Source: Candidatus Poseidoniaceae archaeon (GTDB taxonomy: Archaea > Thermoplasmatota > Poseidoniia > Poseidoniales > Poseidoniaceae). Taken from it: a stretch of 32,000 nt of DNA. The stretch is from positions 480,001-512,000 of the forward strand of contig CALSTM010000003.1 in assembly GCA_943789275.1 (NCBI GenBank), given 5' to 3'. The position numbers were made by a program, and so were the translations under genes. Positions 1,725 to 28,597 of the stretch are shown here, in pieces. Position 1 is the stretch's first letter, and each line of letters opens with the position of its first letter. Under the pieces are notes generated by a model, which was not told where the DNA came from, ran no database searches, and saw only the letters and a program-made list of their open reading frames with translations.

Positions 1725-1910
1725 TCATATCATATCAAATTTCCGCCACCTTTTCTTGAAAATGACTCCAAAAGAGAAACTATCTGCCGGAATTCGGTCA
1801 TTTACGACGGTTGGCGGTGAATTTGCCGATAAAAAGACCCTCCGAAAAAAGCCTCTTTTGTATCGTATTGAACCGTTGGCATCATAGAGTAATTGCTCTT
1901 CGAGTCGAAC

Positions 1911-7053: not shown

Positions 7054-7515
7054 TCACTTCTTTCGATTCGCTAACATCTGCTCTCGAATGTTTTTGGCGT
7101 GGTCCCAGTCTTCTTGCTCTTCGTCTTGTTCAACAACAAATTGTGGGATTGGAATTGGACGCATCATTGAATCAATGGCAACAAAGAAGAAAAATCCTTC
7201 ACATATTTTCTTTTTCTCCCAAGTTGCCTTATTCACCGCCACAGCCGTCACTTTGGTGCAGGCAGTATGGCTGCTGGTAAAGACAACTTTTCCGGTAACT
7301 TCGAGCAAATCCCCTTGTCGGGCAGGGGCGATGAACGTCAGAGCGTCAATCGAGATGGTGACGAACTCTCTGTGGGCAAATTTAGCGCAAGCGATTCCTC
7401 CCGCTTTGTCCATCAGTGAAAGTAATTTGCCACCGAACAGGGTATCGTATGCGTTGGTATCGCCAGGGAATACATGCTCGATCAGCGTAGCGGGTTCCTT
7501 TGAGTACGGTTCCAT
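7054..7515 (-). CDS. Acyl-CoA thioesterase, hotdog fold (YciA/COG1607-like)
   Basis: 153-aa ORF. VFPGDTNAYDTLFGGKLLSLMDKAGGIACAKFA ... VTISIDALTFIAPARQGDLLEVTGKV is the typical acyl-CoA thioester hydrolase hotdog core. Confidence 0.8.
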   Translation of the reverse strand: MEPYSKEPATLIEHVFPGDTNAYDTLFGGKLLSLMDKAGGIACAKFAHREFVTISIDALTFIAPARQGDLLEVTGKVVFTSSHTACTKVTAVAVNKATWEKKKICEGFFFFVAIDSMMRPIPIPQFVVEQDEEQEDWDHAKNIREQMLANRKK

Positions 7516-8379: not shown

Positions 8380-11300
8380 TTGACGAACGATAATCAACAA
8401 CTTAAAACAGCATTCTTACTTGTTTTCATAATGCTTCTGGCACCGTTTGCAGCAGCCGCAAATGTAACGACATTTGGAGATGGAAACTCCACTGAAGAAA
8501 TCGAATTGAGGGACGGAAGCCCGTTTATCGAATCTGGAATGGTTCACCTTCCTTCTACTGAAACCGTGACCAGTGCATCTGTTGACCTTTCCACTTCGAT
8601 GCTCGAACACAGCGCACATTCTCGAATCGATTTGGATACGATGCCTCGTGTCTGGAATCCGATGTACAACAACCAGCTCACTCAATTCTCGAGCGTCGCC
8701 GACTTTGTCTATGAAGAAGGCTCAAATGCAGTTCCTGTTCAACTGAAGTCTGAAGGCTTCCTCACTGACTTTGAAGAAACGACTGCTGACTTCACAGACC
8801 TCCGAGGCTTGTCAGGTCAGTCCCATGGATGGGATCACGGCTCTATCGACCCAACCACAGTCACTCCAAACATCGACATCCCCGACTGCGCAAGTGGAAC
8901 GTACTGCTGGGGTACTGGCCTGTACGACGAAGATTACACCAGCAAGAGCACTGGATTCAACGGTCGAGATTACAAGATGGTTACCGATTCAATTTTCATT
9001 GATTCTTCGCTCAAGAACTCGTTGGGTTACTTCGATTCTTGGCACGAATTGGATATCCAAACCACCAGCGGAACGAACCCTCAAACCTATTTCCGTGACT
9101 GCGCTTACCTCGAAATACGATCTTCACAGAACGACGACCTCGATATCAGTGACCCGAACGGATTTGAATATCTTGAAATCAGTCTCAGTAATTCTTCGCT
9201 CAATTTTGGTGCAGGATATTACTCCGTCTCTTCCAATCAAAACACTGCAAGTCAAATTGATTCCCGATGCAACGGTGTTGCTGCAGGTGACGGGGCGTTG
9301 GGGGGCACCTCCACGAGTGCTTCGAATCCAACCGGTTGGGGACAAATCGCCTTTGATTTAGGACCTTACATGGGCCAATATGTTCAGATTCGCTTTGTAA
9401 TGGAAGATAACGATGCGACAGGTACAGACGGTGGAAAAGCCGGATGGTATGTCGATAACTTCCGAGTTGGAGACCCTCTCCCCGCATCTGCAAACTTAAC
9501 CATCAACGGGTTCTTGCCATCGATTTCCGGCGGTCCAAACCAACCGAACGGCTACGGAATTCTTACGCTTGAAACCAAAACCACCAGCACAGCCACGATT
9601 ACAGTGGATGTACTCGATTCGTCTTCAGGTTCTATCGTATACGACCGAAACGGTCACGCAATGACCAACCTTCAAGGAGATATTCTCGAATTGTGGGACA
9701 TTAACTCAACGCTCAACCCCTCAGTCGACTTCCGGTTCACTTTCAATTCTGGCCCTGACCGACTTTCATCTCCGGTGTTCCATGGATTCAGTATCGGAAC
9801 TCGTGTTGGAACGGGGTTGAATTCCAGCCAATACGATCAGATACCAAATATTGACCAAGGTGTGTGGTCGACAATCGGCGAACTTGAACCGCTGTTCTAC
9901 ACACCGATTCTTTCTGATGTATCGTATACACCAACCCTCGAACGAAGCAATTTCGACCGGCCGATTACGCGCATCAAACCGTACGTTCAAGCAGACTGTA
10001 CTGAAGTTCCACTGATCGACCTCTTCTCAAACGAAGGCGAGGCAATGTACCAATTGGCCAGTGACGTCGAATACATTTTGGATGAGCCGTGGTTTGGATT
10101 TGATTCTGTCATCGCTTTCGAGGACCCTTGTGATGTTGGTGGCGTTTGGTTTGACCTTACATTTGGCCACCATCCTGACGACATTCGATTGGACATTGCC
10201 AACGATGGCCACATTGATTGGGGCTTCGATGAAGAAGCGTTCGGAAGTTTCGGACGACAGACTCAATTCTTGAAGGCCAAGGTTGACGGTGTAAACTACG
10301 GAAAACCGTCCTCTGACCTCATCATTGACAACACAGGTGTTGCAGAAGGTGCAATGTTTATGCTTCCAAAAGGCGCTGAAGTTTCTTCGGTCGATTTGGT
10401 CTTTGACCAGATGGGTATCTATTCGAATACCGATGAGAATGAAGGATTCGAGTTGTCTCTTCTCTCCGGCACTCAAGAAGTGGCTTTGGGCAGCGTTGGT
10501 AACACGACCCTCCTCACGCTAGCGAACGCACCTGCACTTGATTTCAAGTCAGCCTTGAACTCTTTGCTGGGTAATGCTTTGGTTCCAACCAGTCATTACG
10601 ACGCTTACGGAAACGAGTGGCAAACCTTCCGTTTGAAAGCAGAATCGCCAAACGCTTCAACTGCATCACAAGCCACAGTTCGTGATCTCGACATTGTCTA
10701 CAATTACACCGTATCTTTAGGTACTGCTGACGGGCTTGATCGGGAACTCAACAAGGGAATTGCATTGTGGGAAGGTGGCGCTACTGCTGAAGTCCCCATG
10801 ACTTTTACAAGTTCGACCGGCGGAGGTGCTACGTTGTCAAATCTCATGGTTTCAACCTCCAGTGGATACGAGAACACAATCAGCTTGGCTGGAAACCCAG
10901 TTGGACTGTATCCAAACGGTGCAATCTACGAAATTACGACCTCTCACACGGTGAGTGCTCTTACTGGCTCCTCACTGGCTGAAGCCCGTTTGACGTTCGA
11001 GTCAGACACAGGTAATGTCGTTCTAGGATACAGTGACACCCTGCTGTTCTCCGAAGTCTCCGATGTTGGTGACTTAATCACATTGGAATCTTCGACAGCA
11101 ACAACCATCGCTGATGGAAAGCAAATTACATGGCGATTTGTTGTGAATTCAAACTGGGAAGATACCGACGAAGTTCGAATTTATTCCGGTTTGATCGCTT
11201 CAAACGGCGTCAACGGTCTTCCGGACGCTGTTCTTCTTGCTCCAATCAGCGGTAATGCTGTTGAGAACGATGCTGTGATTACTTCGTTCGAAGTTCTCAA

Positions 11301-14271: not shown

Positions 14272-15089
14272 GTGTGAACTTCGTGCCCGCTCGACTTGAA
14301 TGGGGCGATCACTTTTGGGAAGACCCGAATGGAGGGAAAATCCTCATTCATTCAGTCCTTCCAACGGTCGTTTATCCACGGGCAATGCGTACACGGGAAA
14401 CTTGGCATGCTTTGGCTTTGCTTGAATCTCCCGATGTCGTGGACTTGTGGGTTCAGGAAGAAAAAGACGAGGCAGAATCTCCTGGAGTGAACTTGTCTCA
14501 TGGCCTGATATCAGGGGGCTCTTTCGGGATTTTCTTGGATGAAATTTCGATGGTTGAAGATGTGACCAGCGGTCGTTTTCCTGACCCAGAACCTCGGCGA
14601 CTTCATCGAAATGCCGTTCGTCATGAACGCCCAGTGTACTTTATCGAACCAACAGCAGACGATGAGGAGTGGAACAAACACCTCACTCGTGAAGCCAAAG
14701 CAGCTTCTCATTGGCGGAAGTTACTCGGCATGATTTCGATTGGTGGGAAATGGCGAAAGCGAGTGAAGAAGAATATATTCGATGCACAAAAGCCTCCGAA
14801 GGGTGTTTCTCCAAATTTTGGTTCAGCAGCGGTTCTTTCCGCTACGTGGTGGGACTTGAGTGAATGGATTGTCTCGTCAGAAGTCGCTTCGGCCCGAGAC
14901 CAGCGTTATGCTGCTCGCCTACGCGGTGCTTTGGCATCTCTTCGTGATGCCCACGGCGATGATGCAACCCTCCTCGTGGTGACGTACTTGCCTCATCGCA
15001 ATGCTCTCTTGGAGGCGCTTGAATCTCTTCCAGACCAAGAGGAGATTAGTTTAATCACCACACCATCCGGTCAAACAGAGGAGGAATGA
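14268..15089 (+). CDS. Hypothetical cytoplasmic protein, translationally coupled to the giant surface protein gene
   Basis: 273-aa ORF. Its GTG start overlaps the upstream stop (GTGA, 4-nt overlap) and its own stop overlaps the next start (ATGA). No TM segment or motif I recognise. A basic patch KWRKRVKK is present. Confidence 0.6.
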   Translation: MSVNFVPARLEWGDHFWEDPNGGKILIHSVLPTVVYPRAMRTRETWHALALLESPDVVDLWVQEEKDEAESPGVNLSHGLISGGSFGIFLDEISMVEDVTSGRFPDPEPRRLHRNAVRHERPVYFIEPTADDEEWNKHLTREAKAASHWRKLLGMISIGGKWRKRVKKNIFDAQKPPKGVSPNFGSAAVLSATWWDLSEWIVSSEVASARDQRYAARLRGALASLRDAHGDDATLLVVTYLPHRNALLEALESLPDQEEISLITTPSGQTEEE

Positions 15090-15634
15090 GTATGACCGGT
15101 GCAGCCATTGAAGTCCGTATTGAAAATCAACTTGTCCGGTTTGTTCCACCGACGCCCATCGTTCAGCAAGATGTCGTCTCACAACTTGGCGGTCAAGAGA
15201 ACAGTGGAGTGGTCATCAAAGTCCTCGACCGGCCTCGTGCTACTCTCATCATCGATGCAGAAGGCCGAATCACCGTCCACGGAACACAACGTGTTGATGC
15301 AGCAAGAGCTGCAGCAAAGGAATTCATGCTTCGCTTGGGACTGAGCGATGTCGGATTGGAAACTGAACTCGGCCCCGTTATTGCTTCCTTTGATTTCGGA
15401 ATGCCGTTGAGTATTACCCAAATCGTTGGTGAAATCGGTGCGGGTACAGCAACCTACGATGAACGCCTCGGTTGCTGTCTGTTGGATGATTCTCGCCATA
15501 ACTTAACACTCAAAGTTTGGCCAAACGGTCGTTGCATTGTCACCAATGCTCGGCACAGCAACATGGTCGCTATGGCTGCGGTGTATTGGCGAGACAAATT
15601 TTCTGAGAACAATTTCTTTATTGAGCGAGTTTAA
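15086..15634 (+). CDS. Highly divergent TBP-fold (TATA-box-binding-protein-like, two-repeat) protein
   Basis: 182 aa, the size of archaeal TBP. Repeat 1 is VRIENQLVRF...ATLIIDAEGRITVHGTQRVDAARAAAKEFMLRL (compare TBP LRIENIVAS...ALLIFSSGKLVVTGAKS...A..K). Repeat 2 is PVIASFDFGMPLSITQIVGEIG..ATYDERLGCCLLDD..LTLKVWPNGRCIVTNARH. The canonical YEPEQFPG stirrup is absent or degenerate, especially in repeat 1. Confidence 0.45.
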   Translation: MSMTGAAIEVRIENQLVRFVPPTPIVQQDVVSQLGGQENSGVVIKVLDRPRATLIIDAEGRITVHGTQRVDAARAAAKEFMLRLGLSDVGLETELGPVIASFDFGMPLSITQIVGEIGAGTATYDERLGCCLLDDSRHNLTLKVWPNGRCIVTNARHSNMVAMAAVYWRDKFSENNFFIERV

Positions 15635-16581: not shown

Positions 16582-16657
16582 GTAGAGAGGCATTTTCCTA
16601 CGACAAAAAGCCATCACATTCATGAGTGGATGCATACACCGAGGGTTGGTGGCATCC

Positions 16658-17770
16658 ATGCGAAAGGGTCTGATTCTTTGTATTGTGTTCGGGCTTTTCC
16701 TTGCCCCTTGCCTCGTACCTTCTGCCTCGGCTCAAGGCTCTCCAATACCCGCAGTCGAACTGGATTGTGGCTCTTCCGACCCGGTTCTGGATGTTCGTCC
16801 AACCTCGGACGCTGAGGTCAAACTCCAGTGCACAGTCACCAACCCGACCTCGGCAAGTGAAGTTATCAGTATTGAAACTGTTGAATGGGACGGTACTTTG
16901 GTCGAAATGGCACTCAGTGAAGATTCGTTCACTCTCGCAGCAGGTGAAGAAGACACCTTTGACATCGTATTCACCGGCCAAACAAAAATTCCAGCATCAA
17001 CAGACTACTCCTTTGAAATTGGTGCAAAGGTCGAGTCGTGGAACAATCTTCCTTATGGACAACTTCCTGATGGTCCATGGGTCGCTAATACATCTCACAC
17101 TGGTGATTTGATTGTTGAATCCTATGGAATGGTCGAATTGCTTCTTTCCGATGTTTCAACCCGATACATGGATACAAGCGAAGAAGTTGAATTTTCTTTC
17201 CAAGTAACAAACAAGGGTAACGACGATGACACAATGGAAGTCATTTTTGTCAATGCAGCAGACCTTGAAGCAGCACAATTTAGCTTCCCAGGGGGTAAGT
17301 TGGTGAGCGAGAACGTAGCCTATCAGGGCACATCAAGCGTCAAAACGCTGTCGATTCGTGCACCATCTTCGGTGACTGAAGACTTACGAATGCCTCTCAT
17401 TATTCGTGCTCAAAGCGGTGACGATAACAACGCACCCTTCAGCGAAATCACCATCCAACTCGACATCACCGCTCCCTCAAAAAGCGCTGGTATTGATGGA
17501 CTTGACTCCTTGAACTCCGACAGTACGCTGCTGTACGCCTCGATCGGCGGTGGAGCCATTCTTCTTCTCTTGTTCTTGGTTGTCTTAATTCGAGTGGTGA
17601 CAAAGAAGAAACCAAAATCAAAATCCCAGCCTCAAATTCAGCAACCGCTTATTCTGCCAGATGAGCCAGTTCAAGAACAAGCATCGGATGATTTTGATGA
17701 CCTTTTCGACGAACTTGATGGAGCCCAGCCTCCAGAGGATGAATTCGATGATTTATTCGACGACCTGTAA
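16658..17770 (+). CDS. Secreted surface protein with CARDB/NEW3-like beta-sandwich repeats, a C-terminal TM anchor and an acidic DDLF-repeat tail
   Basis: The signal peptide is MRKGLILCIVFGLFLAPCLVPSASAQG (ATG at 16658; the ORF track starts at 16622). Beta-sandwich-like segments include LQCTVTNPTSASEVISIE and FSFQVTNKGNDDDTMEV. The TM is LLYASIGGGAILLLLFLVVLIRVV, followed by KKKPKSK. The tail is DDFDDLFDELDGAQPPEDEFDDLFDDL. Confidence 0.7.
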   Translation: MRKGLILCIVFGLFLAPCLVPSASAQGSPIPAVELDCGSSDPVLDVRPTSDAEVKLQCTVTNPTSASEVISIETVEWDGTLVEMALSEDSFTLAAGEEDTFDIVFTGQTKIPASTDYSFEIGAKVESWNNLPYGQLPDGPWVANTSHTGDLIVESYGMVELLLSDVSTRYMDTSEEVEFSFQVTNKGNDDDTMEVIFVNAADLEAAQFSFPGGKLVSENVAYQGTSSVKTLSIRAPSSVTEDLRMPLIIRAQSGDDNNAPFSEITIQLDITAPSKSAGIDGLDSLNSDSTLLYASIGGGAILLLLFLVVLIRVVTKKKPKSKSQPQIQQPLILPDEPVQEQASDDFDDLFDELDGAQPPEDEFDDLFDDL

Positions 17771-17842: not shown

Positions 17843-17879
17843 TAGGTGTTACGGCCAACACCTACCCATTGGGTAGGTG
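17843..17879 (+). promoter_or_regulatory. Two mutually exclusive hairpins in the fabI leader, a candidate RNA switch or attenuator
   Basis: Hairpin A pairs TAGGTGTT (17843-17850) with AACACCTA (17857-17864): 8 bp, 6-nt loop. Hairpin B pairs CACCTACCC (17859-17867) with GGGTAGGTG (17871-17879): 9 bp, 3-nt loop, followed by CTTTT and the ATG at 17885. The arms overlap at 17859-17864. Hairpin B buries the SD-like GGTG at 17876-17879. Confidence 0.4.
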
Positions 17880-17884
17880 CTTTT

Positions 17885-18679
17885 ATGCTACAATTACAGG
17901 GAAAAACAGCCTTCGTCTTCGGTGTTGCGAGTGAAGACTCGATTGCATGGGCAATTTGCCAACAACTTGCAGCGGCTGGTGTGACGCTGTACCTCGGTTA
18001 TCAGAAGCGTTTCATGAGTCGTGTTTTCCAACTCAAGGATAAGCTCCCACAAATTGGTGGGTTCTATCCATTGGATGTTGCTGAAGATGCCACAACCCGT
18101 GAATTCTTTGAGGCGTTTGAGAAAGAACATCCAGGTAAGAAGGCTGACATTCTCATTCACGCTATTGGTTTTGCACCTCGTGCGTGCTTTGATCGCCCAA
18201 TATTGTTTGTCGAAGACAGCGATATTAACACCGCTATGACCATCTCGGCAAATTCACTTCAACGATGTTTGAAACACGCTCTGCCCTACCTCAATCCTGG
18301 CTCGTCTACAGTTACACTGACCTATGCTGCATCGAATCGCTTTGTTCCAAACTACGGAATCATGTCGATGGCCAAGGCTGCGCTTGAATGCTGGACTCGG
18401 GAACTTGCATGCCATCTTGGTCCAGAAGGTCATCGTGTGAATGCGATTTCTTCTGGCCCTATACGAACCATCGCTGCCAGCGGAGTCCCCGGCTTTGACA
18501 ATATTCTCGACCACGTCGAAGCGAACTCGCCGTTGCGTAGAAACGTCAGCCAAGAGGATGTGGCTGGTGCAACATTATGGTTGGCTAGCCCTCTTTCAAG
18601 CGGTGTGACGGGACAGTGCATCTATGTTGACGGTGGATATTCGATTACAATGGTGCCGCAGAGCATCATGAACAACTGA
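17885..18679 (+). CDS. fabI: Enoyl-[acyl-carrier-protein] reductase (NADH), FabI type
   Basis: LQGKTAFVFGVASEDSIAWAI (FabI-type Rossmann N-terminus), YGIMSMAKAALE (Tyr-x6-Lys catalytic pair) and RVNAISSGPIRTIAASGV closely parallel E. coli FabI motifs. ATG at 17885 is preferred to the GTG at 17846. Confidence 0.88.
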   Translation: MLQLQGKTAFVFGVASEDSIAWAICQQLAAAGVTLYLGYQKRFMSRVFQLKDKLPQIGGFYPLDVAEDATTREFFEAFEKEHPGKKADILIHAIGFAPRACFDRPILFVEDSDINTAMTISANSLQRCLKHALPYLNPGSSTVTLTYAASNRFVPNYGIMSMAKAALECWTRELACHLGPEGHRVNAISSGPIRTIAASGVPGFDNILDHVEANSPLRRNVSQEDVAGATLWLASPLSSGVTGQCIYVDGGYSITMVPQSIMNN

Positions 18680-18690: not shown

Positions 18691-21600
18691 ATGGTCAAAG
18701 ATGCCAAAGGAAATGATGTTCCAGGACTTGAACAAGGACCGTTCGAACCCATTGCCGTAATTGGCGTATCTGCGCTGATGCCGGACGCACCAGACATCGA
18801 TTCGTTTTGGCAAAACATCCTTGATTCCAAGGTCAGTATCCGCCAAATCCCCGAAAATCGCTGGATTGGACCCGTTGACCATTTCTTCCGCGACGGTGGA
18901 CCTGGAAACATCGAAGAAGGCTACACTTATGCCCGAATCGGTGCTGTAGTCGAAGGCTATGAGTTCGATTGGCGCCGATGGAAGCAGCCTCCCGGCACAC
19001 TTACTCAAATCGACCTCGCTCAGCAATGGGCGGTTTCTGTTGCAGCAGCAGCGATAGAGCACGCAGGATACGATGGAGAAAGCAAAGACATCGACCGACT
19101 ACGAACAGGTGTAGCGTTTGCGAATGCACTTGGCGGTGAAAACAGAAACCTTTCCAACATTCGAATCTATTCCAACCACACCAAGGAATTGGCTAAGTCG
19201 TTTGGTATGCCAACCGCCAACGGCGATGCATTTGTCGACGCCATTAACACCGGTGCCCCACGGGTCAACGAGGATACAATGCCTGGTGAATTAGCCAACG
19301 TCGTTGCCGGCAGGGTTTCCAATCTCTTGGATTTACAAGGCCCTAACTTTGCAATGGATGCCGCTTGTGCATCCTCTTTAGCAACCCTCATGGATGCCTG
19401 CCGTCTTTTGCAGATGCGTCAAGTCGATGTCATGATCGCAGGTGCTACAGACCGAAGTATGGATGCACCAACTTTCGCTAAGTTCAGTGCTATTGGTGCG
19501 CTCTCTCCCACCCACTCGACGCCTTTTGATGCAGGTGCGAACGGATTCGTAATGGGTGAAGGTGCAGGTGCATTTGTCCTCAAACGCCTTTCTGATGCCA
19601 TTCGAGACGGTGACGAAGTTCACGCTGTCATTCGCGGTGTAGGCGGCTCCTCCGATGGACGCGGAAAAGGCATAACCGCTCCAAGTCAGCGCGGTCAGAT
19701 TCAGGCCATTGCTCGTGCGTATTCACAAGCGGAGTACGACACAACGACCGTAGAATTAATTGAGGCTCACGGAACATCAACCAAGGTCGGAGACGCTACC
19801 GAATTAGGAACGCTGTCGTTGCTTTGGGAAGGTTCTCCCTCCGGTAATCACGTCGCCGTTGGTTCCATCAAATCTCAAGTTGGCCACCTCAAGGCTGCTG
19901 CTGGAATTGCTGGCTTAATCAAAGCCGTAATGGCTCTTCATCACCGCACTATACCGCCTTCGGCTGGCTTCAAAACGCCCAACCCAACCGTGGATTGGGA
20001 CAACAACGCTTTCTTTGTTCCAACAGAAGCACGAGATTGGCCTCGGCCGGTCAACCACCCGCGCCGAGCAGGAGTGTCTGCATTCGGTTTCGGTGGAACC
20101 AATTATCACGTTGCATTGGAAGGTTTTGAACCGGAATATCACGCTGAACTCGCTCAGAAATGGGATGCTCGATGGTCCGCATATGCTCAAGACTCAACAG
20201 CATCATCAGCGCCATCAACTGCTGACTCCATCTTGGATGCAAGCGCACAACCATCGATGACGCATGAAGAGATGAAGGCTGTTGAAGGTGGCATTTTGTT
20301 GCTATCAGCATCAGACCTTACCGCACTGCAATTAAAGCTCGAAGCGGTTGATTTTGCAGGCACACATTTCGATGAGGACCCTCGCGGTCTACGGCTTTCA
20401 TCGGCATTGGATTCGGCTTCTTCTGAATATGCTGAATCGGATGCTTTCCGCATGTGCATCGTGGCTACTTCGTGGGCAGAGTTTCACAAGCGTACAGCAC
20501 TTGCTGGTAAAGCCATGAATGACCCCGAAAAGTGGGGCTTCCTCCAGGCTCAAGGGATTCTGTTGACCAACGACCCTGCTCTCCACCCCAAGGCGAAAGT
20601 CGCTCACATGTACCCCGGCCAGGGGAGCCAATACGTGGGCATGACGCACGATTTGCATCAACGCTACAGCGCCGTACAGAACGTCTGGAATCAAGCGGAT
20701 GAGACGATGGTTGAGGTCTTGGACGGCGAAACCCTGTCAAGTTTCGTATTGCGGTCAAATCTATCCAAAGAGGAGCGCATTGAAGCAGAACACAAACTGA
20801 AGCAGACTGAGTATACTCAGCCTGCAATGCTCACGGCTGATTTGGCCATTGAACGTGCACTGAACGACCACGGCCAGCACCCCGATATGGTTGCAGGCCA
20901 TTCCCTCGGCGAATATGCTGCCCTCATGTCTGCAGGTATTCTGGACATGGACGGCGCGTTGCGAGCATCGGCCGCTCGCGGCACTGAAATGGGATCTGTT
21001 GTTATCGAAGACAAAGGCTTGATGGCAAGCATCATGGCTCCTTACGATGAAGTTGCATCCGTGCTCGATTCGATTGAGGGCTACGTTATTGCAGCCAATA
21101 AGAACTCGCCAAAGATGACGGTGATTGCTGGAGAAACCGAACCTGTGAAGCAGGCTATGGCTCAGTTTGATGAGAAAGGATTCCAAGCAGTCCCTCTGGC
21201 CACATCTCACGCCTTCCACTCTCGTATCGTAGCGCCTGCAAACGAACCGTTGCGTCGATTCCTCGAAAGCCTGGAGATTCGCTGGCCCCGTATCCCGATT
21301 ACCGCGAATGTGGATGGATCGTTTTATCCGATGGAAGGTGCCGATTCGAAGGAAGGGGTGCTCGGAAAACTTGCACCACAAATGGCATCAGCTGTCGAAT
21401 GGACCACTCAAATTGAGACGATGTATGCCGCAGGTGCCCGTGCTTTTGTCGAAGTAGGGCCGAAGCGAGCCCTCACCATGTTTGCCGTTCAGATTCTTGA
21501 AGACAAACCGCATTTGCCGATTATGTGCAATCATCCAAAGCAAGGCGGCATCGCAACGTTCCTCAGCGCACTTGGAACACTTGCTCTTGCCGGTCGAAAA

Positions 21601-24600
21601 CCGCAATGGCCTGCTGCAGATTCTCACGTGCTCACCGAAGCATTCCGAGCAGGACCCATCGAAGCATACGGTGCCTCAAGCACCCCTTCGTTCAGTACTG
21701 CCCAAGTCGAGGATTTGCAAACACGGGCACGCCCACTGCCATCAAACGGCTCTCCAGCACCTGTGCAGAACATCGTTCAAGCGTCGGCTCCTGTAGCCCG
21801 AAGCCTGGACCCTGCTGTGGCTGCTGCCAAGGCTATGGATGCTTATTTGGGCGACCGCCTCGCTGCAGTGAGCGGCTATCCTGCACGATTCTGTAACGGC
21901 ATGGTTAATCTTCGCTTCGGACTTGGAATGACCGATGCGCAAGTTGCATCCGTACTTCATACGATTTCCAGCGAAGCATCCGTTGATGCTTCGACCGATA
22001 CAACGGCTATAACGACTGCTGCTGATGTGGCGAAATGGATTACTGCTCTTCCGTCTTCATGGAGTCCAAAGACTTCGATGTCGCATGCACCACCACTACA
22101 GACCACCCCACAAACGGTATCGGCACCAACACATGTTGACCGCCGCAAGGCAGATCCATACGTGGTGACCGGTGTCTCTCTCGGTCTTCCTGGTGGAGAG
22201 CGCGTGTTTGAGGAAGAGACCTTCGAGCGCTTGGTGCGAGGTGAAACCTGCATTTCTGAAGTGAGCGACGAATACAAGCAACGCTTGCTCGATAAGAACA
22301 TCGTTCGTCTCATCAAAGGCAGGGACGGCTCTGTTAACATGGAGCAAACCAAGGAGTTTGGTGACATACCTCAACTTGCTGGAATCAAATCAGCGTTCGA
22401 TATTGCAGAAGAGTTTGGCATCGATGCCAAGGTTGTTCTTGCATGGGACATCACGACTCAGTTGGCCGTTGCTTCCGGACTGTTGGCATTGCGAGATGCG
22501 GCGATTCCACTCACACCGGTTGAACAAATCGGTAAGGGCGGTCTTCGATTGATTCGCAACTGGCAAGTCCCACAGCACCAGCGTGAGAGAACCGGTATAG
22601 TGTTCGCTTCCTGTTTCCCTGGTTTACAAATGGCAATGAAACACGCCAAGAGCGACGGTGATGACGGTGAAGGACGATTTGACCGCCGCTATCTTTTCCA
22701 AACGCTCAACATGGGCCATTCACAGTTCGCTCAGTACACTGGTATCCGTGGACCAAACACGACCATCAATCTTGCTTGTGCCTCGACCACTGCTGCGTTT
22801 GGCGTAGCTGAAGACTGGTTGAACAGCGACCGGGTCGACCGAGTCGTCATCATTTCTGCTGACGATGTGACCGGTGAAGACTTGTGGGAATGGATTGGAG
22901 GTGGCTTTGCAGCCTCTGGTGCAGCAGCAACAAGCAACGTGGTTGAAGAAGCAGCCTTGCCATTCGACCGTCGAAGAAACGGCTTGGTTCTCGGAATGGG
23001 CGCTGCGGCTTTCGTTGTTGAGCGTCATTCAGAAGCCATACAACGTGGAGTCCAACCGATTGCTGAGTTGCTCGGCTCAACAACAGCGAACTCCGCTTTC
23101 CACGGAACTCGACTCGATGTTGAACATGTTGCCCAGACGGTTGACTCGTTCATGTCTTCAATGGAAACGCAATGGAGTCTTGACCGACATGCGATCGCTG
23201 CGAACACGGTGTTCTTTTCTCATGAAACATACACACCGGCTCGAGGAGGCTCAGCACAATCTGAAGTTCGTGCTCTGCGAGATACTTTTGGTGCCAGCAC
23301 AGACCGTTTGGTGATTGCTAATACCAAAGGATTCACTGGACACCCAATGGGTGTTGGTATCGAAGATGCAAGCATGTTCTACGGCATGAAGACGGGTAGA
23401 ATACCGCCAATTGCAAACCACAAGGAGACCGACCCAGAACTTGGAAACTTAAACCTCTCAAAAGGTGGAGATTATCCGGAACTTGAGTATGGTCTGCGCT
23501 TTGCAGCAGGCTTTGGCTCACAAATGGCCCTTTCATTGGTTCGTAAATGGCCGGTTGTCGGTGAGCGAATCGATGGGCAAAAGTTCCTTGCCTGGACTCG
23601 AAAACTGGCAGAGACTGACGATGTTGTTCTCCGAATTCTCGATAACAAACTCGTGGCTTATGTTAACGGGGACGAAAATCTCCATGGCGGCGTACAAGGC
23701 GAAGCATGGGATGTTACGGCGGCTTGGGAAGGTAAACCCTCTTTGGAAACGCCTGTTGCTGCTTCAGCGCCTATTGCACCGCCTGCACCTGCCGCACCAG
23801 AGCCAACCCCAGAACCTACGCCAACACCCGCAGCGGTTGCTGCTCCAGTGGCTTCAGATTTGACGGCAGTTGTCATTGAAGTGGTGGTAAGCCATACCGG
23901 CTATCCTGCAGATTTCGTTGAATTGGATCAAGACCTTGAAGGAGAATTGGGCATTGATACGGTAAAGCAAGCTGAAATCATGGCCGATATACGAGACCGT
24001 TTCACTTTACCAATCGATGAAGAGTTTGTTCTTTCTGACTATCCAACGCTGAACCACATGATTGGCTATATTCAGCAAATGACGACGGGTGTTGCAGCAG
24101 CGCCATTGGTCGTACCCGCTTCGGCACCTGTTGCTGCACCTGTCGCCGTAACTCCAGAGCCTGTTCCAGCGCCTGCAGTTGTCACGGATGAATCGCTCAC
24201 TGAAACGGTGATTAGCGTTGTCGTTCGTCATACTGGCTACCCCGCTGATTTCGTTGAATTGGATCAAGACCTTGAAGGAGAATTGGGTATTGATACGGTA
24301 AAACAAGCCGAAATCATGGCCGAGATTCGAGATCTGTTTTCACTTCCGCTGGATGAAGACTTCGTCCTCTCGGACTACCCTACGCTGAATCACATGATTG
24401 GTTACATCCAAAGAATGCAAGGCGGTGTTTCTGTGGCACAAGCTCCAGCAATTGCTGCACCAACCGTAGCAAAACCAACACCGGTTCCGGCTCCGACAAT
24501 GCCATCAAAGCCCGTATCCGTTGCAACCGCAGTGAGCGATACAGACCTCACTTCGATTGTTGTCGAAGTTGTCGTCCAGCACACCGGTTATCCGAGCGAT

Positions 24601-27600
24601 TTCATCGAGTTGGACCAAGACCTCGAGGGAGAACTTGGCATTGATACGGTGAAGCAAGCCGAAATCATGGCCGATATTCGGGACCGATTCTCATTGCCTT
24701 TGGATGAAGATTTCGTCCTCTCTGATTATCCTACCTTGAACCACATGATTGGCTATATCCAAAGAATGCAAGGTGGTTCAGCGGTTAAGCCGGTTGCATC
24801 GAGTCCCGTTCCAGCACCAGCCGTAGCTGCTCCTGTGCCGGTTTCTGTACCGTCTGCGCCGACGTTGCCTCCAGTTACCGATTCGACGATTCAATCGCGC
24901 CTGATTGAAGTGGTGGTTCGCCATACAGGATATCCTGATGATTTCATCGAGATGGACCAAGACCTTGAGGGTGAATTGGGCATTGATACGGTGAAGCAAG
25001 CCGAAATTATGGCTGATGTTCGTGATATCTTTGAATTACCAATCGATGAAGACTTCGTTCTTTCAGACCATCCAACACTGAATCACTTTACCGCATACAT
25101 TCAACGGATGACAGGCGGAAATGCGGTTGAAGCACCGGTTGTTGTTGAGGCGCCAGTTGTGGTACCTGCACCAGTTTCTTCACCGGCACCTCGACCTGTC
25201 GAACGGCAAGAAAACTGCCGACGATGGCAGGTTGAAGTCGAAGAGTGTCTTGGAAGCGATTCACCAATTTCTCTTGACGGCACATTGGTCGTCACCGATG
25301 ATGGATGGGGCATTGCTGAAGCCTTCTGTCAACTTGTTGAAGCCAAAGGAATGAAGGCGGTTCGAGTTGGCTTTGAAAGTGAAATCCGTGACATGTCGTC
25401 GCATGAAGAAGATGGCCGTACCGTTTTCCGTGCTGACCCAGCAAATCCAGAACACATGGTCGAAGTCAGTAAGGAACTGCAACAGATGAACGTTGCAGGT
25501 TTGGTTCACTTGGCTCCGCTTAAACTCGCAGGAGTCGCTTGGAACGATGACACACTTCCATCCTCACAAATCGCATTGGCTGCTCACGGATACTTCTCAC
25601 TCCTGCAAGGTCTTGATGCACAATTTGCTGGACGAGAGAACGGCCTGGTTGCTTCAGTAACCGCTCTTGATGGCCGACATGGCAATATTGGCGAACGGTT
25701 CAATTCCGTACAATGTGCTGCTTCTGGGGTTACGAAATCCTACTTCTTTGAGCAAACTCATCTGCGAATGCGTGCATTGGATATGCACCCTGAATTGATT
25801 CTTGATGCTGAGCAAGCAGCTCAAACCATCGCATCTGACCTGTTTGAAATCGGCGGAGAGGTCGAGGTCGGAATCGATCGAGACGGCCGTCGGTGGACAC
25901 TGGTTGCCTTCGCTGAAGACCTCGAAGCAGAAACCACACCGTTGCAGTCCGATGACACTTGGATTGTTTCGGGCGGTGGCTCTGGGGTAACAGCAGCATC
26001 CGTTATCGGCGTAGCATGCCACTCGCTCAATGCCGGTGCCCACTTTGCCTTACTCGGACGCTCGAAGTTGGTTGAGGAAACCAAGGAATGGGTTGAATGG
26101 TCGGATGCACAACTTACTGAACGAAAGAATTCCCTTCGTCAAGAGTTGATTGAAGCCAGTGAATCTGGTAAAGTTACAATGGTACAATGGAACACAGCAT
26201 GGCAGAAGTTCTCTCGAAGTCGAGATGTCTACATCACCATCAAGACGATTGAAGAGACCGGTAACGCTGCTTCATACCATTCCGTCGATGTCATGGACAC
26301 AGACGGGCTTCGTGCTTTGGGTACGTCATTAGGGCGCCCGATAACGGGAATCATTCACGGTGCAGGCTTAGAAGACTCGAAACTCGTAGCGGCCAAAGAT
26401 TACAACGTCTTTGACAAGGTCATTCGAGTCAAGGTTGACGGCTGGCAATCGTTGTTAGGCGCAGTTGAATCGTCGGGAGGCGAATTGCGCTTTGCTTCAT
26501 GTTTCACCAGTGTCTCAGGGCGGTTTGGAAACAACGGCCAAACGGATTATTCTGCAGCAAACAGCATTCTTGACGCTGAGATGGCTCGATTGACGGCAAG
26601 CGGTACATGCAGGGCAGTAGCAATCGCATGGACTGGATGGCGAGACGTAGGAATGGCAACTCGTGGCTCTTTCCAGGCTGTTTTTGATGCAGCTGGAATC
26701 GATACCATTTCGGTCGACAAGGGTGTTGAAATCTTTGTTGGAGAAGCCTTGCAAGGTGGAAAACGCCGAGTTCTCGGCTGTGGCAATCTTGGAACGATGG
26801 ATGCGTTTGACGCTTTCAGAGAAGCGCCTCTTCGCCTTCCGGCGGAAATGGCGAACATTATCGCGGACCCGTTCCGATTCCCGTTTGTCGACAAAGTTCT
26901 CTCGGTCGATGAACGGCAATCACTGGTCACACAGACCACGCTCTCTGTTGCTGATCATCCGTTCTTGACGGACCATTCCATCGAAGGAGTCCCCTACCAT
27001 CCGGGCGTCATGGCCATGGAGATGTTTGCTGAAAACGCTCTTCTGTTGAGGCCTTCTGCTTGTCTTGCCGGTTTCGAGGACGTTTCTTTCGGTCTACCCG
27101 TGAAGTTACTGAAAGGTGATTTGACGGTTCGAGTTCACGCTGATTTGATACGTGGCGATGGTGAAATGAGTTGGGTTGCATGTCGCTTGGTTTCGGATTT
27201 GAGTAACTCGAAGGGTGAAGTGTTTGGTGAACGAGAACATCACAAGGCAGTAGTCCGGGTTGTCGAAAGCCGTGATGACCTTGGACCGTTCCTGCAAAAG
27301 GAAGTCGAATCTCTGCCGCAACTTGGAACGCCTGCTCTTGGTGAGTTGGTTGAGTTGCCATCGTTCATCTATCGACGTTATTTCCACGGTCCTCGATTCC
27401 AATCGCATGGTGGCGTACTACGCGGTATTGGTGATGAGCAGATGCCAGGAGCGGACGGTATTGCCTTGATGCGTCATCAACTGCCGATGCTCGACCAGTT
27501 TGCTCTTGAATCAAAAGGAGAAACCGTCTTGCTTGAAGCCCTGCCGATGCTCATTGAAGCAGGATTCCAAAACGCTGGTCTAGTCGCCATGGAATCTGAA

Positions 27601-27834
27601 GGCTTCTCTTCACTTCCTGTTGGAATCGAATGGTCATCGATGCTCAGAGTTCCAGAGCGAGATGAAGTCTTGAGAATGCGAAGTCTGCGAATTGCCGTTG
27701 AGGACGCTGGTATCACTGTCCATGATGTTGTTGTTGTTGGCGATGATGATGCTCCAGTTCTTGCACTCAAGGGCCTTCGATTGAAGAGTATGGCTCCAGT
27801 GGCACAAGAAGATGCGTTCACGCTCGACCGGTGA
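18691..27834 (+). CDS. Type I multidomain fatty-acid/polyketide megasynthase, PfaA-like with an extra ketosynthase: KS-AT-(degenerate carrier)-KS-ACPx4-KR-DH
   Basis: Uninterrupted 3047-aa ORF. All domain signatures were read directly from the translation; see the domain features below. No ER, TE or FabA-type DH domain is present in cis. Confidence 0.95.
   Translation: [3047 protein letters not shown]
18745..20121 (+). other. Ketosynthase domain 1 (KS1)
   Basis: [15 protein letters not shown]. Active-site Cys in MDAACASSL (TGT 19366-19368). [14 protein letters not shown] and [12 protein letters not shown] supply the His-His pair. [17 protein letters not shown] is the C-terminal signature. 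Confidence 0.92.
20596..21495 (+). other. Malonyl-CoA:ACP acyltransferase domain (AT)
   Basis: [30 protein letters not shown] (active Ser, codon at 20902-20904) and SHAFHS (an HAFH-type motif associated with malonyl specificity). Confidence 0.9.
21823..22050 (+). other. Degenerate carrier-protein-like segment between AT and KS2
   Basis: [45 protein letters not shown]...[11 protein letters not shown] aligns by eye with the downstream ACP repeats ([37 protein letters not shown]...LNHMIGYIQ). The D-T dipeptide is replaced by T-D. Confidence 0.35.
22153..23550 (+). other. Ketosynthase domain 2 (KS2), divergent but retaining Cys-His-His
   Basis: [13 protein letters not shown]. Active-site Cys in [12 protein letters not shown] (TGT 22777-22779). 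[40 protein letters not shown] (first His). [16 protein letters not shown] (second His). [16 protein letters not shown] is the C-terminal signature. Confidence 0.8.
23854..25110 (+). repeat. Four tandem acyl-carrier-protein domains (coding tandem repeat, period about 336-351 nt) separated by Ala/Pro-rich linkers
   Basis: Repeat units lie at about 23854-24081, 24187-24417, 24538-24768 and 24880-25110. Each reads ..VV(S/R/Q)HTGYP(A/S/D)DF(V/I)E(L/M)[20 protein letters not shown](D/E)(I/V)RD...[13 protein letters not shown]. Linkers resemble [27 protein letters not shown]. Units 1 and 2 share a 41-nt identical run (23911-23951 = 24247-24287). Confidence 0.85.
25228..26760 (+). other. Ketoreductase domain (structural pseudo-KR plus catalytic KR subdomains)
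   Basis: The NADPH-binding site is [25 protein letters not shown] is present. The catalytic region is [23 protein letters not shown] (SDR Tyr in the YxxxN context typical of PKS/FAS KR domains). Confidence 0.78.
26863..27810 (+). other. PKS-type dehydratase domain (double hotdog)
   Basis: The HxxxGxxxxP motif sits in [26 protein letters not shown] (catalytic His codon at 26974-26976). The second half contains YFHGPRFQ and [13 protein letters not shown]. There is no FabA-like DH/isomerase signature. Confidence 0.72.
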
Positions 27835-27838
27835 TGAT

Positions 27839-28597
27839 ATGAATGGGTTCGAGGAGATTTTTCCTCCACACGCCTTACCGGTTCGAGTACAGTGTTTTCG
27901 ATGTCCCGTTGAGGCACGAGACCTCGGGCAGGTTACACTTGCATCCGTTGATGAAGTTGCAACGTTTGCTGTGGATAAGCGCCGTGATGAACACTTGACT
28001 GGTCGTTGGTTACTTGCACAAGCAGTTGCTCAGTGGGGATTGGAACCTTCGATGTTGGAAGTTCGACGAACTGAACATCGAGCACCCATACTTGCTTACC
28101 TCTCCGGTCTTTGGATGAATACGCCTTTGCCTTCGATCAGTATTGGCCATTCAGAAGGTTGGGCGTATGTTGCTGTTGTTGAACCGGGATGGTCCATTGG
28201 AATAGACGCTGAATCTGCTGAACGTGGCATAGCACCCAATGCATTTGACATGATGGCAAAAGGAGATGAATTGGAATGGCTGAATGCTCATCCAGAACAT
28301 GCCATTCGGTTGTGGACTTCGAAAGAATCTGTACAAAAAGCGATGCAACTGGGCATGCATTTGAACCCCCGTAAAATTGTAATTCCAATTGGAGAATCAA
28401 TTGTAGATATTTCAATTGATAATTCAAAAATCCAATTGCAAAACTGGACATTTCGTGGTGCGAATATCTCGTTGGCTTGGCGACCGGAATCAGTACGGTT
28501 GAGAACGGCAGAGGATGATTTACTGGACCTCACGAGAAAGGCTATGCAGGAACAAGAATGGGGTGTTGGTTGTAAAACGACACAAGGGCGCGCCTGA
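27839..28597 (+). CDS. 4'-phosphopantetheinyl transferase, Sfp/PfaE type
   Basis: SIGHSEGWAYVAV, SIGIDAESAE (Mg-binding D/E motif) and RLWTSKESVQKA (the WxxKE[SA]xxK motif). The ATG at 27839 is 4 nt after the megasynthase stop. The ORF-track start at 27812 would overlap the megasynthase by 23 nt. Confidence 0.85.
   Translation: MNGFEEIFPPHALPVRVQCFRCPVEARDLGQVTLASVDEVATFAVDKRRDEHLTGRWLLAQAVAQWGLEPSMLEVRRTEHRAPILAYLSGLWMNTPLPSISIGHSEGWAYVAVVEPGWSIGIDAESAERGIAPNAFDMMAKGDELEWLNAHPEHAIRLWTSKESVQKAMQLGMHLNPRKIVIPIGESIVDISIDNSKIQLQNWTFRGANISLAWRPESVRLRTAEDDLLDLTRKAMQEQEWGVGCKTTQGRA

What the first reader, a model, noticed from the sequence alone, without database searches (positions are those of the whole stretch)
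21823..23550. Extra Cys-His-His ketosynthase, preceded by a decayed carrier-like segment, inserted between AT and the ACP array
PfaA-type proteins are KS-AT-ACPn-KR-DH. Here a second full-length KS (22153-23550) follows the AT. It keeps the catalytic Cys (INLACAST, TGT 22777-22779) and both His positions (FSHETYTP, TGHPMGVG). It is therefore not a Cys-less chain-length-factor. Its other signature blocks are strongly diverged from KS1 (GFGSQMALSLV instead of FGFGGTNYHVAL; HETYTPARGG instead of HGTSTKVGD). Between AT and KS2, 21823-22050 encodes a segment that aligns with the downstream ACP units (SGYPARF versus TGYPADF; LRFGLGMTDAQVASV versus LEGELGIDTVKQAEI) but with the D-T dipeptide scrambled to T-D. 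This looks like a fossil module boundary: KS-AT-ACP fused to KS-ACP4-KR-DH. Two potentially active KS domains served by one AT suggest either a division of labour between priming and elongation or a cis-fused KS/KS heterodimer. To my knowledge this is not one of the standard pfa, hgl or ole architectures, but I cannot verify that without a database.
Basis: partly seen in the sequence, partly recalled or inferred. Interest (0 to 1): 0.7.

Follow-up and report, generated by a model that had tools for sequence, protein, structure and literature searches.

The report
Known two-ketosynthase lipid synthase, archaeal copy
The extra ketosynthase and the worn-out carrier domain are real, but the overall design is a fatty-acid-synthase-like enzyme described in bacteria in 2011 (product still unknown), and this is the copy that marine group II archaea carry.

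Summary
ORF 18691-27834 (3047 aa) reads KS1-AT-[ACP-like]-KS2-ACPx4-KR-DH. KS2 (22153-23550) keeps Cys1363, His1511, Lys1546, His1551 and the gating Phe1608. All five are invariant in 77 related sequences from archaea and bacteria. By sequence and predicted fold KS2 is FabF-like, not a Cys-less chain-length factor.

The segment 21811-22047 is a degenerate ACP. Profile-profile probability is 95%, AlphaFold pLDDT is about 88-92, and every top PDB fold match is an ACP or PCP. It lacks a conserved attachment residue.

The novelty claim fails. KS-MAT-"CLF"-ACP(3-6)-KR with a downstream PPTase is "Type R" of Shulse & Allen 2011. At least 596 species genomes encode a KS2 relative, and all 80 loci examined show the same domain order.

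The window is from a Poseidoniales (MGII) archaeon, where FabI-synthase-PPTase is a conserved cluster. The ACP-like domain was found in every Poseidoniales locus but not in the sampled bacteria. One deltaproteobacterial MAG has an intact ACP at that position. The "fossil module boundary" reading therefore stays unresolved.

Most likely this is an iterative fatty-acyl synthase with two active KS domains. The product is unknown.

In passing: nearly all ACPs of this family (203/208) have Thr instead of Ser at the phosphopantetheine site.

The parts
17846..18679 (+). FabI-type enoyl-ACP reductase gene, the probable trans-acting ER of the system
   Evidence: Pfam adh_short_C2 E 1e-70. Top NCBIfam hits are all FabI, though below the equivalog cutoffs. 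It lies directly upstream of the synthase in 47 of 53 Poseidoniales loci.
18691..27834 (+). Single 3047-aa megasynthase ORF: KS1-AT-pseudoACP-KS2-ACPx4-KR-DH
   Evidence: The same single-ORF order occurs in archaeal and bacterial loci.
18745..20142 (+). KS1, a PfaA/PKS-type ketosynthase (Cys226, His360, Lys394, His399)
   Evidence: PF00109, PF02801 and PF16197. TIGR02813 PfaA covers aa 20-942. Motifs located and aligned.
20608..21594 (+). Acyltransferase (malonyl-CoA:ACP transacylase-type) domain
   Evidence: PF00698 E 6e-35 and TIGR00128 fabD E 1e-61.
21811..22047 (+). Degenerate ACP-fold domain (pseudo-ACP), aa 1041-1119. Asp1082 sits in the column of the attachment residue, with Thr1081 one position before it.
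   Evidence: No Pfam hit. HHalign versus the family ACP profile: 95.2%, E 2.7e-8. AF2 pLDDT 87-98 with helices at aa 1041-1061, 1082-1095 and 1110-1116. The top 50 Foldseek PDB matches are all ACP/PCP, TM-target about 0.53-0.77 for free-standing carrier proteins. Site census; dN/dS 0.087.
22153..23550 (+). KS2, a FabF-like Cys-His-His ketosynthase (Cys1363, His1511, Lys1546, His1551, Phe1608; family-specific Glu1512)
   Evidence: AF2 mean pLDDT 92. Foldseek ranks 1-49 are KAS II-type synthases, bacterial FabF plus the mitochondrial homologue, with TM-target 0.83-0.91. The catalytic residues are invariant in 77/77 sequences. dN/dS 0.019.
23854..25119 (+). Array of four ACP domains (23854-24090, 24190-24426, 24541-24777, 24883-25119), each with LGIDTVKQAE, i.e. 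Thr at the Ser36-equivalent site
   Evidence: PF00550, four stretches. Motif positions. Family census DT 203/208.
26221..26646 (+). Ketoreductase domain (Pfam core; the full domain starts further upstream)
   Evidence: PF08659 E 2e-23.
26881..27807 (+). PKS-type dehydratase domain
   Evidence: PF21089 and PF14765.
27812..28597 (+). Sfp-type 4'-phosphopantetheinyl transferase gene, overlapping the synthase stop by 23 nt
   Evidence: PF01648 and PF17837. Weak Npt/PptT-like NCBIfam hits. Found downstream in 36 Poseidoniales loci.

Best explanation
The gene encodes an archaeal (Poseidoniales/MGII) member of the 'Type R' Pfa-like secondary-lipid synthases. It is a self-contained, iterative, fatty-acid-synthase-like megasynthase. 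The AT loads malonyl units onto four tandem ACPs. KR and DH act in cis, the neighbouring FabI most likely supplies enoyl reduction in trans, and the overlapping PPTase gene activates the ACPs. KS2 is a catalytically competent FabF-like condensing domain, not a chain-length factor. Inferred, not shown: the PKS-type KS1 and the FabF-type KS2 share the elongation cycles, for example priming and short chains versus long chains. With only a PKS-type DH and no FabA-like isomerase, the product is probably a saturated or simply functionalised long acyl chain. The segment between AT and KS2 is a true ACP homologue that has lost its attachment motif. It persists in Poseidoniales as a folded, non-carrier spacer or docking domain.
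For: Domain order and catalytic motifs. KS2's Cys, His, Lys, His and Phe are invariant in 77/77 archaeal and bacterial sequences (motif census), and dN/dS is 0.019. Nearest relatives by sequence and fold are FabF-type synthases. KS2 forms its own clade apart from FabF, FabB and KS1. The same architecture occurs in the 80 loci examined, drawn from at least 596 species genomes that encode a KS2 relative. It matches the published Type R description, including the downstream PPTase and, in Acidobacteria, an ACC gene between synthase and PPTase. FabI and PPTase synteny is conserved across Poseidoniales. Pseudo-ACP: searches support homology and fold; searches show loss of the site; one search shows relaxed but non-neutral evolution. 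An archaeal host is indicated by a TBP gene in the window and by named Poseidoniales relatives.
Against: No biochemical data exist for any member, and the product of Type R clusters was unknown in 2011. I found no later characterisation in ten literature searches. KS2 deviates from canonical KS domains next to the first His (invariant HETYTPARGGS, loss of the FabF Asp311 equivalent, a 2-residue deletion after the second His), so its chemistry could differ from plain elongation. Division of labour between KS1 and KS2 is inference only. That FabI serves this synthase rests on synteny. Bacterial relatives use a different neighbour, an acyl-CoA-dehydrogenase-like gene. Direct sequence comparison with the six genomes named as Type R was not possible.
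Confidence: 0.6

Rival explanations
1. KS2 is a chain-length-factor-like, catalytically silent partner that heterodimerises with KS1 and only shapes the acyl pocket, as the 2011 'CLF' label implies.
For: Shulse & Allen annotate this position as CLF. PUFA synthases and type II PKSs do use KS-CLF pairs (general knowledge). KS2 carries unusual substitutions around the first His.
Against: CLFs are defined by loss of the active-site Cys. KS2 keeps Cys, both His, Lys and the gating Phe in 77/77 sequences spanning archaea and several bacterial phyla, with dN/dS 0.019. No CLF appears among the top 50 fold matches or the top 60 sequence matches in the PDB; FabF-type synthases dominate.
Confidence: 0.1
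2. Fossil module boundary: the family arose by fusing a KS-AT-ACP module to a KS-ACPn-KR-DH module. The pseudo-ACP is the relic of the first module's carrier, lost entirely in most bacteria.
For: An ACP homologue sits exactly at the AT/KS2 junction in all Poseidoniales loci with an intact junction. One deltaproteobacterial MAG (L057) has an intact ACP with LGIDTVKQAE there. It is only about 50% identical to its own downstream ACPs, so it is old rather than a recent duplicate.
Against: 26 of the 27 bacterial linkers extracted are 16-94 aa, and the conserved short helix motif most of them carry has no detectable similarity to ACP or to the pseudo-ACP. KS2 is FabF-like, not a copy of a PKS-module KS. 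The pseudo-ACP scores no better against archaeal than bacterial ACP profiles, so its origin cannot be polarised. The NJ tree splits archaea from bacteria without nesting.
Confidence: 0.25
3. Lineage-specific insertion: an ACP copy was inserted between AT and KS2 in the Poseidoniales ancestor, and independently in the L057 lineage. It then lost its attachment site and was kept as a spacer or docking domain.
For: Among 80 loci it is restricted to the monophyletic Poseidoniales clade plus one bacterium. Only 21 cluster representatives in 1.84 billion proteins match it. It is present in both MGIIa- and MGIIb-type loci, so there was one early event. Purifying selection persists.
Against: There is no sequence signal tying it to archaeal rather than bacterial ACPs. 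Only 27 bacterial loci out of several hundred were inspected.
Confidence: 0.4

Closest known systems
Type R secondary-lipid (Pfa-like) synthase clusters of Shulse & Allen 2011 (Koribacter, Solibacter, Elusimicrobium, Roseiflexus)
   Same: One pfaA-like gene with KS-MAT-second KS-like domain-ACP(3-6)-KR, followed by a PPTase gene. There are no PfaB, PfaC or PfaD genes. Relatives of the window protein occur in Acidobacteriota, Chloroflexota and other phyla, with an ACC gene between synthase and PPTase as described for Koribacter.
   Different: The host is an archaeon. An extra degenerate ACP-fold domain lies between AT and KS2. FabI, rather than an acyl-CoA-dehydrogenase-like gene, is the conserved upstream neighbour, and there is no adjacent multidomain ACC. 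The published label 'CLF' does not fit, because the catalytic Cys is retained.
Canonical PUFA synthase PfaA plus PfaC (KS-AT-ACPn-KR-DH plus KS-CLF-DH-DH)
   Same: KS1-AT and ACPn-KR-DH are PfaA-like (TIGR02813, 935 bits). Both use tandem ACPs, and a system with more than one KS-type domain serves one ACP array.
   Different: The score is below the PfaA cutoff of 1010 bits. The second KS sits in cis between AT and the ACPs, is FabF-like and keeps Cys. There are no FabA-like DH/isomerase domains and no PfaD-type ER.
FabF / KAS II elongating ketosynthases of type II FAS
   Same: Same fold (TM-target 0.89-0.90 to E. coli FabF). The Cys163, His303, Thr305, Thr307, Glu314, Lys335, His340 and Phe400 equivalents are kept.
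   Different: About 27% identity. It is embedded in a megasynthase. It has N-terminal insertions, an invariant HETYTPARGGS in place of HGTGTPxGD, and a 2-residue deletion after the second His.
Inactive or 'pseudo' carrier domains; also AT-ACP junctions as in enediyne PKS (KS-AT-ACP-KR-DH-PPTase). Both are recalled from general knowledge and were not tested here.
   Same: An ACP-fold domain directly after the AT.
   Different: Here the attachment motif is gone and a second KS follows. No sequence comparison with enediyne PKSs was made.

Membership tests
Type R Pfa-like secondary-lipid synthase (Shulse & Allen 2011) | Single pfaA homologue with the order KS-MAT-second KS-like ('CLF')-ACP(3-6)-KR | tested here: met
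   Pfam and NCBIfam domain maps. There are four ACPs. The same order is seen in 80 related loci.
Type R Pfa-like secondary-lipid synthase (Shulse & Allen 2011) | PPTase gene immediately downstream | tested here: met
   ACPS/4PPT_N gene at 27812-28597, overlapping the synthase stop. Conserved in 36 archaeal and 14 bacterial loci.
Type R Pfa-like secondary-lipid synthase (Shulse & Allen 2011) | No separate PfaB, PfaC (KS-CLF-DH2) or PfaD genes in the cluster | tested here: met
   None among the ORFs of at least 150 aa in the 32-kb window.
Type R Pfa-like secondary-lipid synthase (Shulse & Allen 2011) | KS phylogeny groups with the named Type R genomes (Koribacter, Solibacter, Roseiflexus, Elusimicrobium) | tested here: inconclusive
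   Those genomes were not among the 80 loci returned. Relatives at 47-52% identity come from the same orders or families (Terriglobales, Bryobacteraceae, Chloroflexales). They share the Koribacter-type ACC placement.
Chain-length factor (CLF / KS-beta) | KS fold that lacks the active-site Cys | tested here: not met
   Cys1363 aligns with FabF Cys163 and is invariant in 77/77 sequences.
Chain-length factor (CLF / KS-beta) | Obligate heterodimer with an active KS | not testable with these tools
   No multimer prediction was available.
Elongating Cys-His-His beta-ketoacyl-ACP synthase (FabF/FabB class) | Thiolase fold with Cys-His-His triad, Lys335 and gating Phe400 | tested here: met
Elongating Cys-His-His beta-ketoacyl-ACP synthase (FabF/FabB class) | Decarboxylative Claisen condensation activity | not testable with these tools
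   Needs an enzyme assay.
Acyl carrier protein domain (PF00550), applied to aa 1041-1119 | Four-helix carrier fold and sequence homology to ACPs | tested here: met
   HHalign 95.2%. AF2 pLDDT 88-92. All of the top 50 PDB fold hits are ACP/PCP. phmmer retrieves true ACP arrays.
Acyl carrier protein domain (PF00550), applied to aa 1041-1119 | Conserved Asp-Ser(/Thr) attachment site at the start of helix II | tested here: not met
   The window has Thr-Asp in place of Asp-Thr. Across 53 archaeal sequences the site column is D/E/A/G/P and the preceding column is S/T/N/D. There is no PF00550 hit even at E<=10.
Canonical PfaA (TIGR02813) | Score above the curated cutoff, and KS-AT-ACPn-KR-DH without a second KS | tested here: not met
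   935 bits against a cutoff of 1010, and KS2 is present.

The most novel reading that the evidence does not exclude
This synthase, with FabI and its own PPTase, could be the primary fatty-acid synthase of MGII archaea. It would represent a distinct, little-studied class of FAS with two active KS domains in one polypeptide and carriers that bear phosphopantetheine on Thr rather than Ser. That would supply the acyl chains for the mixed archaeal/bacterial membranes proposed for this group. The pseudo-ACP would be an archaeal-lineage adaptation that positions KS2 relative to KS1-AT.
Probability: 0.25. Interest if true: 0.75.

Novelty: new member of a known kind. Interest (0 to 1): 0.35.

Why it matters
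The architecture that made the finding look special has been in the literature since 2011 and is common in genomes, so it is not a discovery.

Three smaller points remain useful.

1. The 'CLF' label for the second KS of Type R synthases is wrong. The domain keeps a strictly conserved Cys-His-His-Lys set, so these enzymes have two potentially active condensing domains.

2. MGII archaea, abundant and uncultured, conserve a complete ACP-dependent synthase cluster (FabI-synthase-PPTase). This bears on the debate about whether they make fatty-acid-containing membranes. A 2024 preprint still states that archaea lack type I and type II FAS and nearly always lack ACP.

3. The archaeal lineage carries a folded ACP relic at the AT/KS2 junction. 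The whole family uses Thr at the carrier attachment site. Both are cheap to test by mass spectrometry.

Tried and rejected
- Pfam on the ACP-like segment alone found nothing. Homology appeared only with family-specific profiles.
- I tested whether the short helix motif conserved in most bacterial AT-KS2 linkers (DRYxELGxLFAxxLExG) is an ACP remnant. HHalign probability was below 1% against both the ACP and pseudo-ACP profiles, so this was rejected.
- I tested whether the pseudo-ACP resembles archaeal ACPs more than bacterial ones, which would favour a recent in-lineage duplication. There was no signal: the mean difference was -1.4 bits, with 22 of 52 favouring archaeal.
- I tested whether L057's junction ACP is a recent copy of its own array. 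It is only 48-50% identical, no closer than to other genomes' ACPs.
- TRF found no DNA-level tandem repeat in the ACP array.
- dS is saturated beyond the closest relative, so dN/dS is usable only against L041.
- Literature searches for MGII plus PKS/PfaA, 'KS-AT-KS', MGII plus ACP, and phosphopantetheinyl-threonine phrases returned nothing relevant. One BGC-mining paper listing T1PKS/HglE-KS clusters in Poseidoniaceae is retracted and was not relied on.
- The search for homologous proteins returned only fragments of 859 aa or less. Full-length context had to come from genome loci.
Full report
**What is in the sequence.** The finding lies inside one 9144-nt ORF, 18691-27834 on the + strand, encoding 3047 aa. 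Pfam and NCBIfam place these domains:
- a PfaA/PKS-type ketosynthase (KS1) at aa 19-484
- an acyltransferase at aa 640-968
- four PP-binding (ACP) domains between aa 1722 and 2143
- a KR
- a PKS-type DH

The N-terminal KS-AT matches the PfaA model TIGR02813, at 935 bits against a cutoff of 1010. Scanned alone, aa 988-1720 contains a second ketosynthase: PF00109 E 2.4e-14, TIGR03150 fabF E 9e-38, with FabF models as the best hits.

| Motif | Position |
|---|---|
| INLACAST | Cys1363, TGT at 22777-22779 |
| FSHETYTP | His1511 |
| TGHPMGVG | His1551 |
| GFGSQMALSLV | aa 1607-1617 |
| SGYPARF | aa 1061-1067 |
| LRFGLGMTDAQVASV | aa 1074-1088 |

**KS2 is a Cys-His-His ketosynthase of FabF type, not a CLF.** I aligned KS2 with E. 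coli FabF and FabB (fetched). KS2 residues fall in the columns of Cys163, His303, Thr305, Thr307, Glu314, Lys335, His340 and the gating Phe400.

The differences from FabF are:
- Glu instead of Gly after the first His
- an RGG insertion that removes the Asp311 equivalent
- a two-residue deletion after the second His
- N-terminal insertions

The best PDB sequence matches are FabF proteins (4ddo, E 4e-25), and no CLF chain appears in the top 60. An AlphaFold2 model of aa 1040-1630, built on 117 sequences, has mean pLDDT 92.3 and pTM 0.82. Its Foldseek PDB ranks 1-49 are all KAS II-type synthases: bacterial FabF (TM-target 0.85-0.91, E about 1e-31 to 1e-27) plus three chains of the human mitochondrial homologue. 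The first PKS entry is actinorhodin KS-alpha at rank 50, and no CLF appears.

Across 77 KS2 sequences from archaeal and bacterial loci, Cys1363, His1511, Lys1546, His1551 and Phe1608 are invariant. So is the family-specific Glu1512 (motif census over 120 database hits). Against the closest relative, dN/dS of KS2 is 0.019. In an NJ tree the KS2 family is its own clade, separate from FabF, FabB and KS1.

**The segment before KS2 is a degenerate ACP.** Pfam sees nothing in 21823-22152, even at E<=10. Other evidence shows homology and fold:
- A profile of the AT-KS2 linkers from 53 Poseidoniales sequences aligns to a profile of 208 ACP units of the same family. HHalign probability is 95.2%, E 2.7e-8, over 70 columns that span the whole ACP. 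This corresponds to window aa 1050-1119.
- The ACP HMM hits individual archaeal linkers down to E 4e-8.
- Conversely, the linker HMM hits true downstream ACPs.
- A single-sequence phmmer of aa 1040-1132 against 1.84 billion representatives returns only 21 proteins at E<=1e-3. Among them are true tandem ACP arrays: P0128, E 6e-10 in three stretches with LGVDSVQRAE, and P0132, a bacterial array with LGIDTVKQAE.
- AlphaFold2 predicts the segment confidently both in the KS2 context (pLDDT 87-98) and alone (mean 87.6). Helices fall at aa 1041-1061, 1082-1095 and 1110-1116, plus short turns.
- The top 50 Foldseek PDB matches of the isolated model are all acyl or peptidyl carrier proteins. For free-standing carrier proteins TM-target is about 0.53-0.77 and rmsd 1.4-3.5 Å; probability is 0.91-1.00 across all 50. 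E-values are weak (0.06-0.4), as expected for a 70-residue domain.

The carrier function, however, is very probably lost. In the HHalign register the attachment column holds Asp1082 in the window and D/E/A/G/P in relatives. The preceding column is S/T/N/D, so no hydroxyl residue is conserved.

The domain is not freely decaying. dN/dS against L041 is 0.087. This compares with 0.007 for a real ACP, 0.01-0.02 for KS1, AT and KS2, and 0.10-0.15 for the flanking spacers. It is best described as a relaxed but retained ACP-fold domain.

**The architecture is known and widespread.** Shulse & Allen 2011 (PMC3098273) define 'Type R' secondary-lipid synthase clusters. They describe one pfaA homologue with KS-MAT-CLF-ACP(3-6)-KR, followed by a PPTase gene, in Koribacter, Solibacter, Elusimicrobium and Roseiflexus. 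The product is unknown. In Koribacter an ACC gene separates the synthase from the PPTase.

I mapped the window's domains onto the 80 loci returned. In every locus long enough to span the gene, they follow the order KS1-AT-KS2-ACPn-KR-DH. It is a single ORF in nearly all; a few lower-quality assemblies are split by frameshifts:
- L003-L055 are Poseidoniales (MGIIa and MGIIb).
- L056-L082 are Acidobacteriota, Myxococcota and other deltaproteobacteria, Acidimicrobiia and other Actinomycetota, and Calditrichota.

Protein hits are also named from Chloroflexales, Terriglobales, Gemmatimonadota and cultured actinomycetes such as Kibdelosporangium and Nostocoides.

Bacterial clusters have three recurring neighbours:
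- an acyl-CoA-dehydrogenase-like gene directly upstream, in 24 loci at 56-86% identity across phyla
- a 1878-aa multidomain ACC downstream, in 16 loci
- a PPTase downstream, in 14 loci

This matches the Koribacter description.

One caveat applies. The six genomes named in the 2011 paper were not among the loci I could fetch. Membership rests on architecture, gene context and order- or family-level taxonomy, not on a direct alignment with those genomes.

**Host and context.** The window encodes a TATA-binding protein (15086-15634). Its closest relatives are Poseidoniales MAGs, with L041 at 96% identity over KS2. The block surface protein-unknown-TBP-TatD-anchor protein-FabI-synthase-PPTase is syntenic across more than 40 Poseidoniales loci. 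FabI lies directly upstream in 47 of 53 loci, and the PPTase lies downstream in 36. Poseidoniales KS2 sequences are monophyletic, which implies one early acquisition or inheritance.

[quoted passage not shown] 2017, as cited in PMC6962369) and potential mixed membranes (PMC6461757). A 2024 preprint still states that archaea lack type I and type II FAS and almost always lack ACP.

**Origin of the pseudo-ACP.** It is present in every Poseidoniales locus with an intact junction, in linkers of 145-184 aa. The 27 bacterial linkers extracted differ:
- 26 are 16-94 aa, and most contain a conserved short helix motif (DRYxELGxLFAxxLExG). This motif shows no similarity to ACP or to the pseudo-ACP.
- One deltaproteobacterial MAG (L057) has an intact ACP with LGIDTVKQAE at this position. 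It is only 48-50% identical to its own downstream ACPs.

The pseudo-ACP is no closer to archaeal than to bacterial ACP profiles. The tree does not nest archaea within bacteria. The data therefore cannot decide between an ancestral KS-AT-ACP | KS-ACPn-KR-DH fusion with later loss, and lineage-specific ACP insertion followed by loss of the site. KS2 is FabF-like rather than a copy of KS1, and most sampled bacteria lack any remnant. For those reasons I weight insertion (0.4) somewhat above the fossil boundary (0.25).

**Mechanism (inferred).** The cluster holds every activity of an iterative ACP-dependent synthase: AT, four ACPs, KR and DH in cis, FabI adjacent, a dedicated PPTase, and two KS domains with complete catalytic sets. 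No FabA-type dehydratase/isomerase or PfaD-type ER is present in the window. A saturated or simply functionalised chain is therefore more likely than a PUFA.

I infer that KS1 and KS2 handle different cycles. This is by analogy with FabH/FabB/FabF and with the KS_A versus KS_C specialisation reported for PUFA synthases (general knowledge; see also the remark in PMC13291983). This step is not shown.

**Verdict.** The architecture itself is already known. This gene is a new (archaeal) member of a known kind, with a lineage-specific pseudo-ACP. Interest is modest at 0.35. The most unusual feature seen is incidental to the finding: 203 of 208 ACP units across the family, including all four here, carry Thr instead of Ser at the phosphopantetheine attachment position.

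Noticed in passing
window 23947-23967, 24283-24303, 24634-24654, 24976-24996 (Thr1757, Thr1869, Thr1986, Thr2100); ACP units in L001-L082: All four ACPs read LGIDTVKQAE, with Thr where carrier proteins normally have the phosphopantetheinylated Ser (E. coli ACP Ser36 column). Across 208 ACP units of the family, archaeal and bacterial, 203 have Asp-Thr and only 2 have Asp-Ser. A related non-Type-R protein (P0128) has Asp-Ser. The ACPs are under very strong purifying selection (dN/dS 0.007). No paper in the searchable library uses phosphopantetheinyl-threonine phrases.
   Followed up: partly
L001, L002, L056-L082 (bacterial relatives): Bacterial versions of the cluster have an acyl-CoA-dehydrogenase-like gene immediately upstream (24 loci, 56-86% identity across phyla). 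A roughly 1900-aa eukaryote-like multidomain acetyl-CoA carboxylase and a PPTase lie downstream. Acidobacteria also have ETF alpha/beta genes. Poseidoniales have FabI instead, though four MGIIb-type loci (L047, L048, L053, L055) also show an ACAD hit. The enoyl-reduction partner seems to have been swapped between lineages.
   Followed up: partly
window 23218-23220 (Glu1512), within HETYTPARGGS at 23215-23250: The KS2 family has an invariant Glu (77/77) directly after the first catalytic His, where FabF, FabB and KS1 have Gly. There is also an RGG insertion that removes the FabF Asp311 equivalent. The consequence for chemistry is unknown.
   Followed up: no
window 8380-14271 (+): A 1963-aa ORF with no Pfam hit, an N-terminal hydrophobic segment and a C-terminal transmembrane stretch. 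It is conserved in 41 Poseidoniales loci and is probably a large surface protein.
   Followed up: no
window 16622-17770 (+): The ORF between TatD and FabI is a 'choice-of-anchor T' family surface protein (NF041740, E 2e-29). It is not a lipid enzyme, despite its position next to the cluster.
   Followed up: yes
window 1893-3251 (+) and 7054-7515 (-): A stand-alone biotin carboxylase (ACC subunit-like) and a 4HBT-fold thioesterase lie 10-17 kb upstream of the synthase. They could supply malonyl-CoA or release product, but they are not within the 10-kb flanks held for the related loci.
   Followed up: no
KS2 region of bacterial relatives (e.g. P0032, P0029) versus window 22600-22700: Most bacterial KS2 domains carry an extra helical insertion of roughly 35-60 aa, rich in Arg, Glu and Leu, before the DRRFLF motif. 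It is absent from Poseidoniales and from a small deltaproteobacterial/myxococcal subgroup (L057, L060, L073, L075). That subgroup also contains the bacterial sequences most similar to the archaeal ones, at about 52% identity.
   Followed up: no
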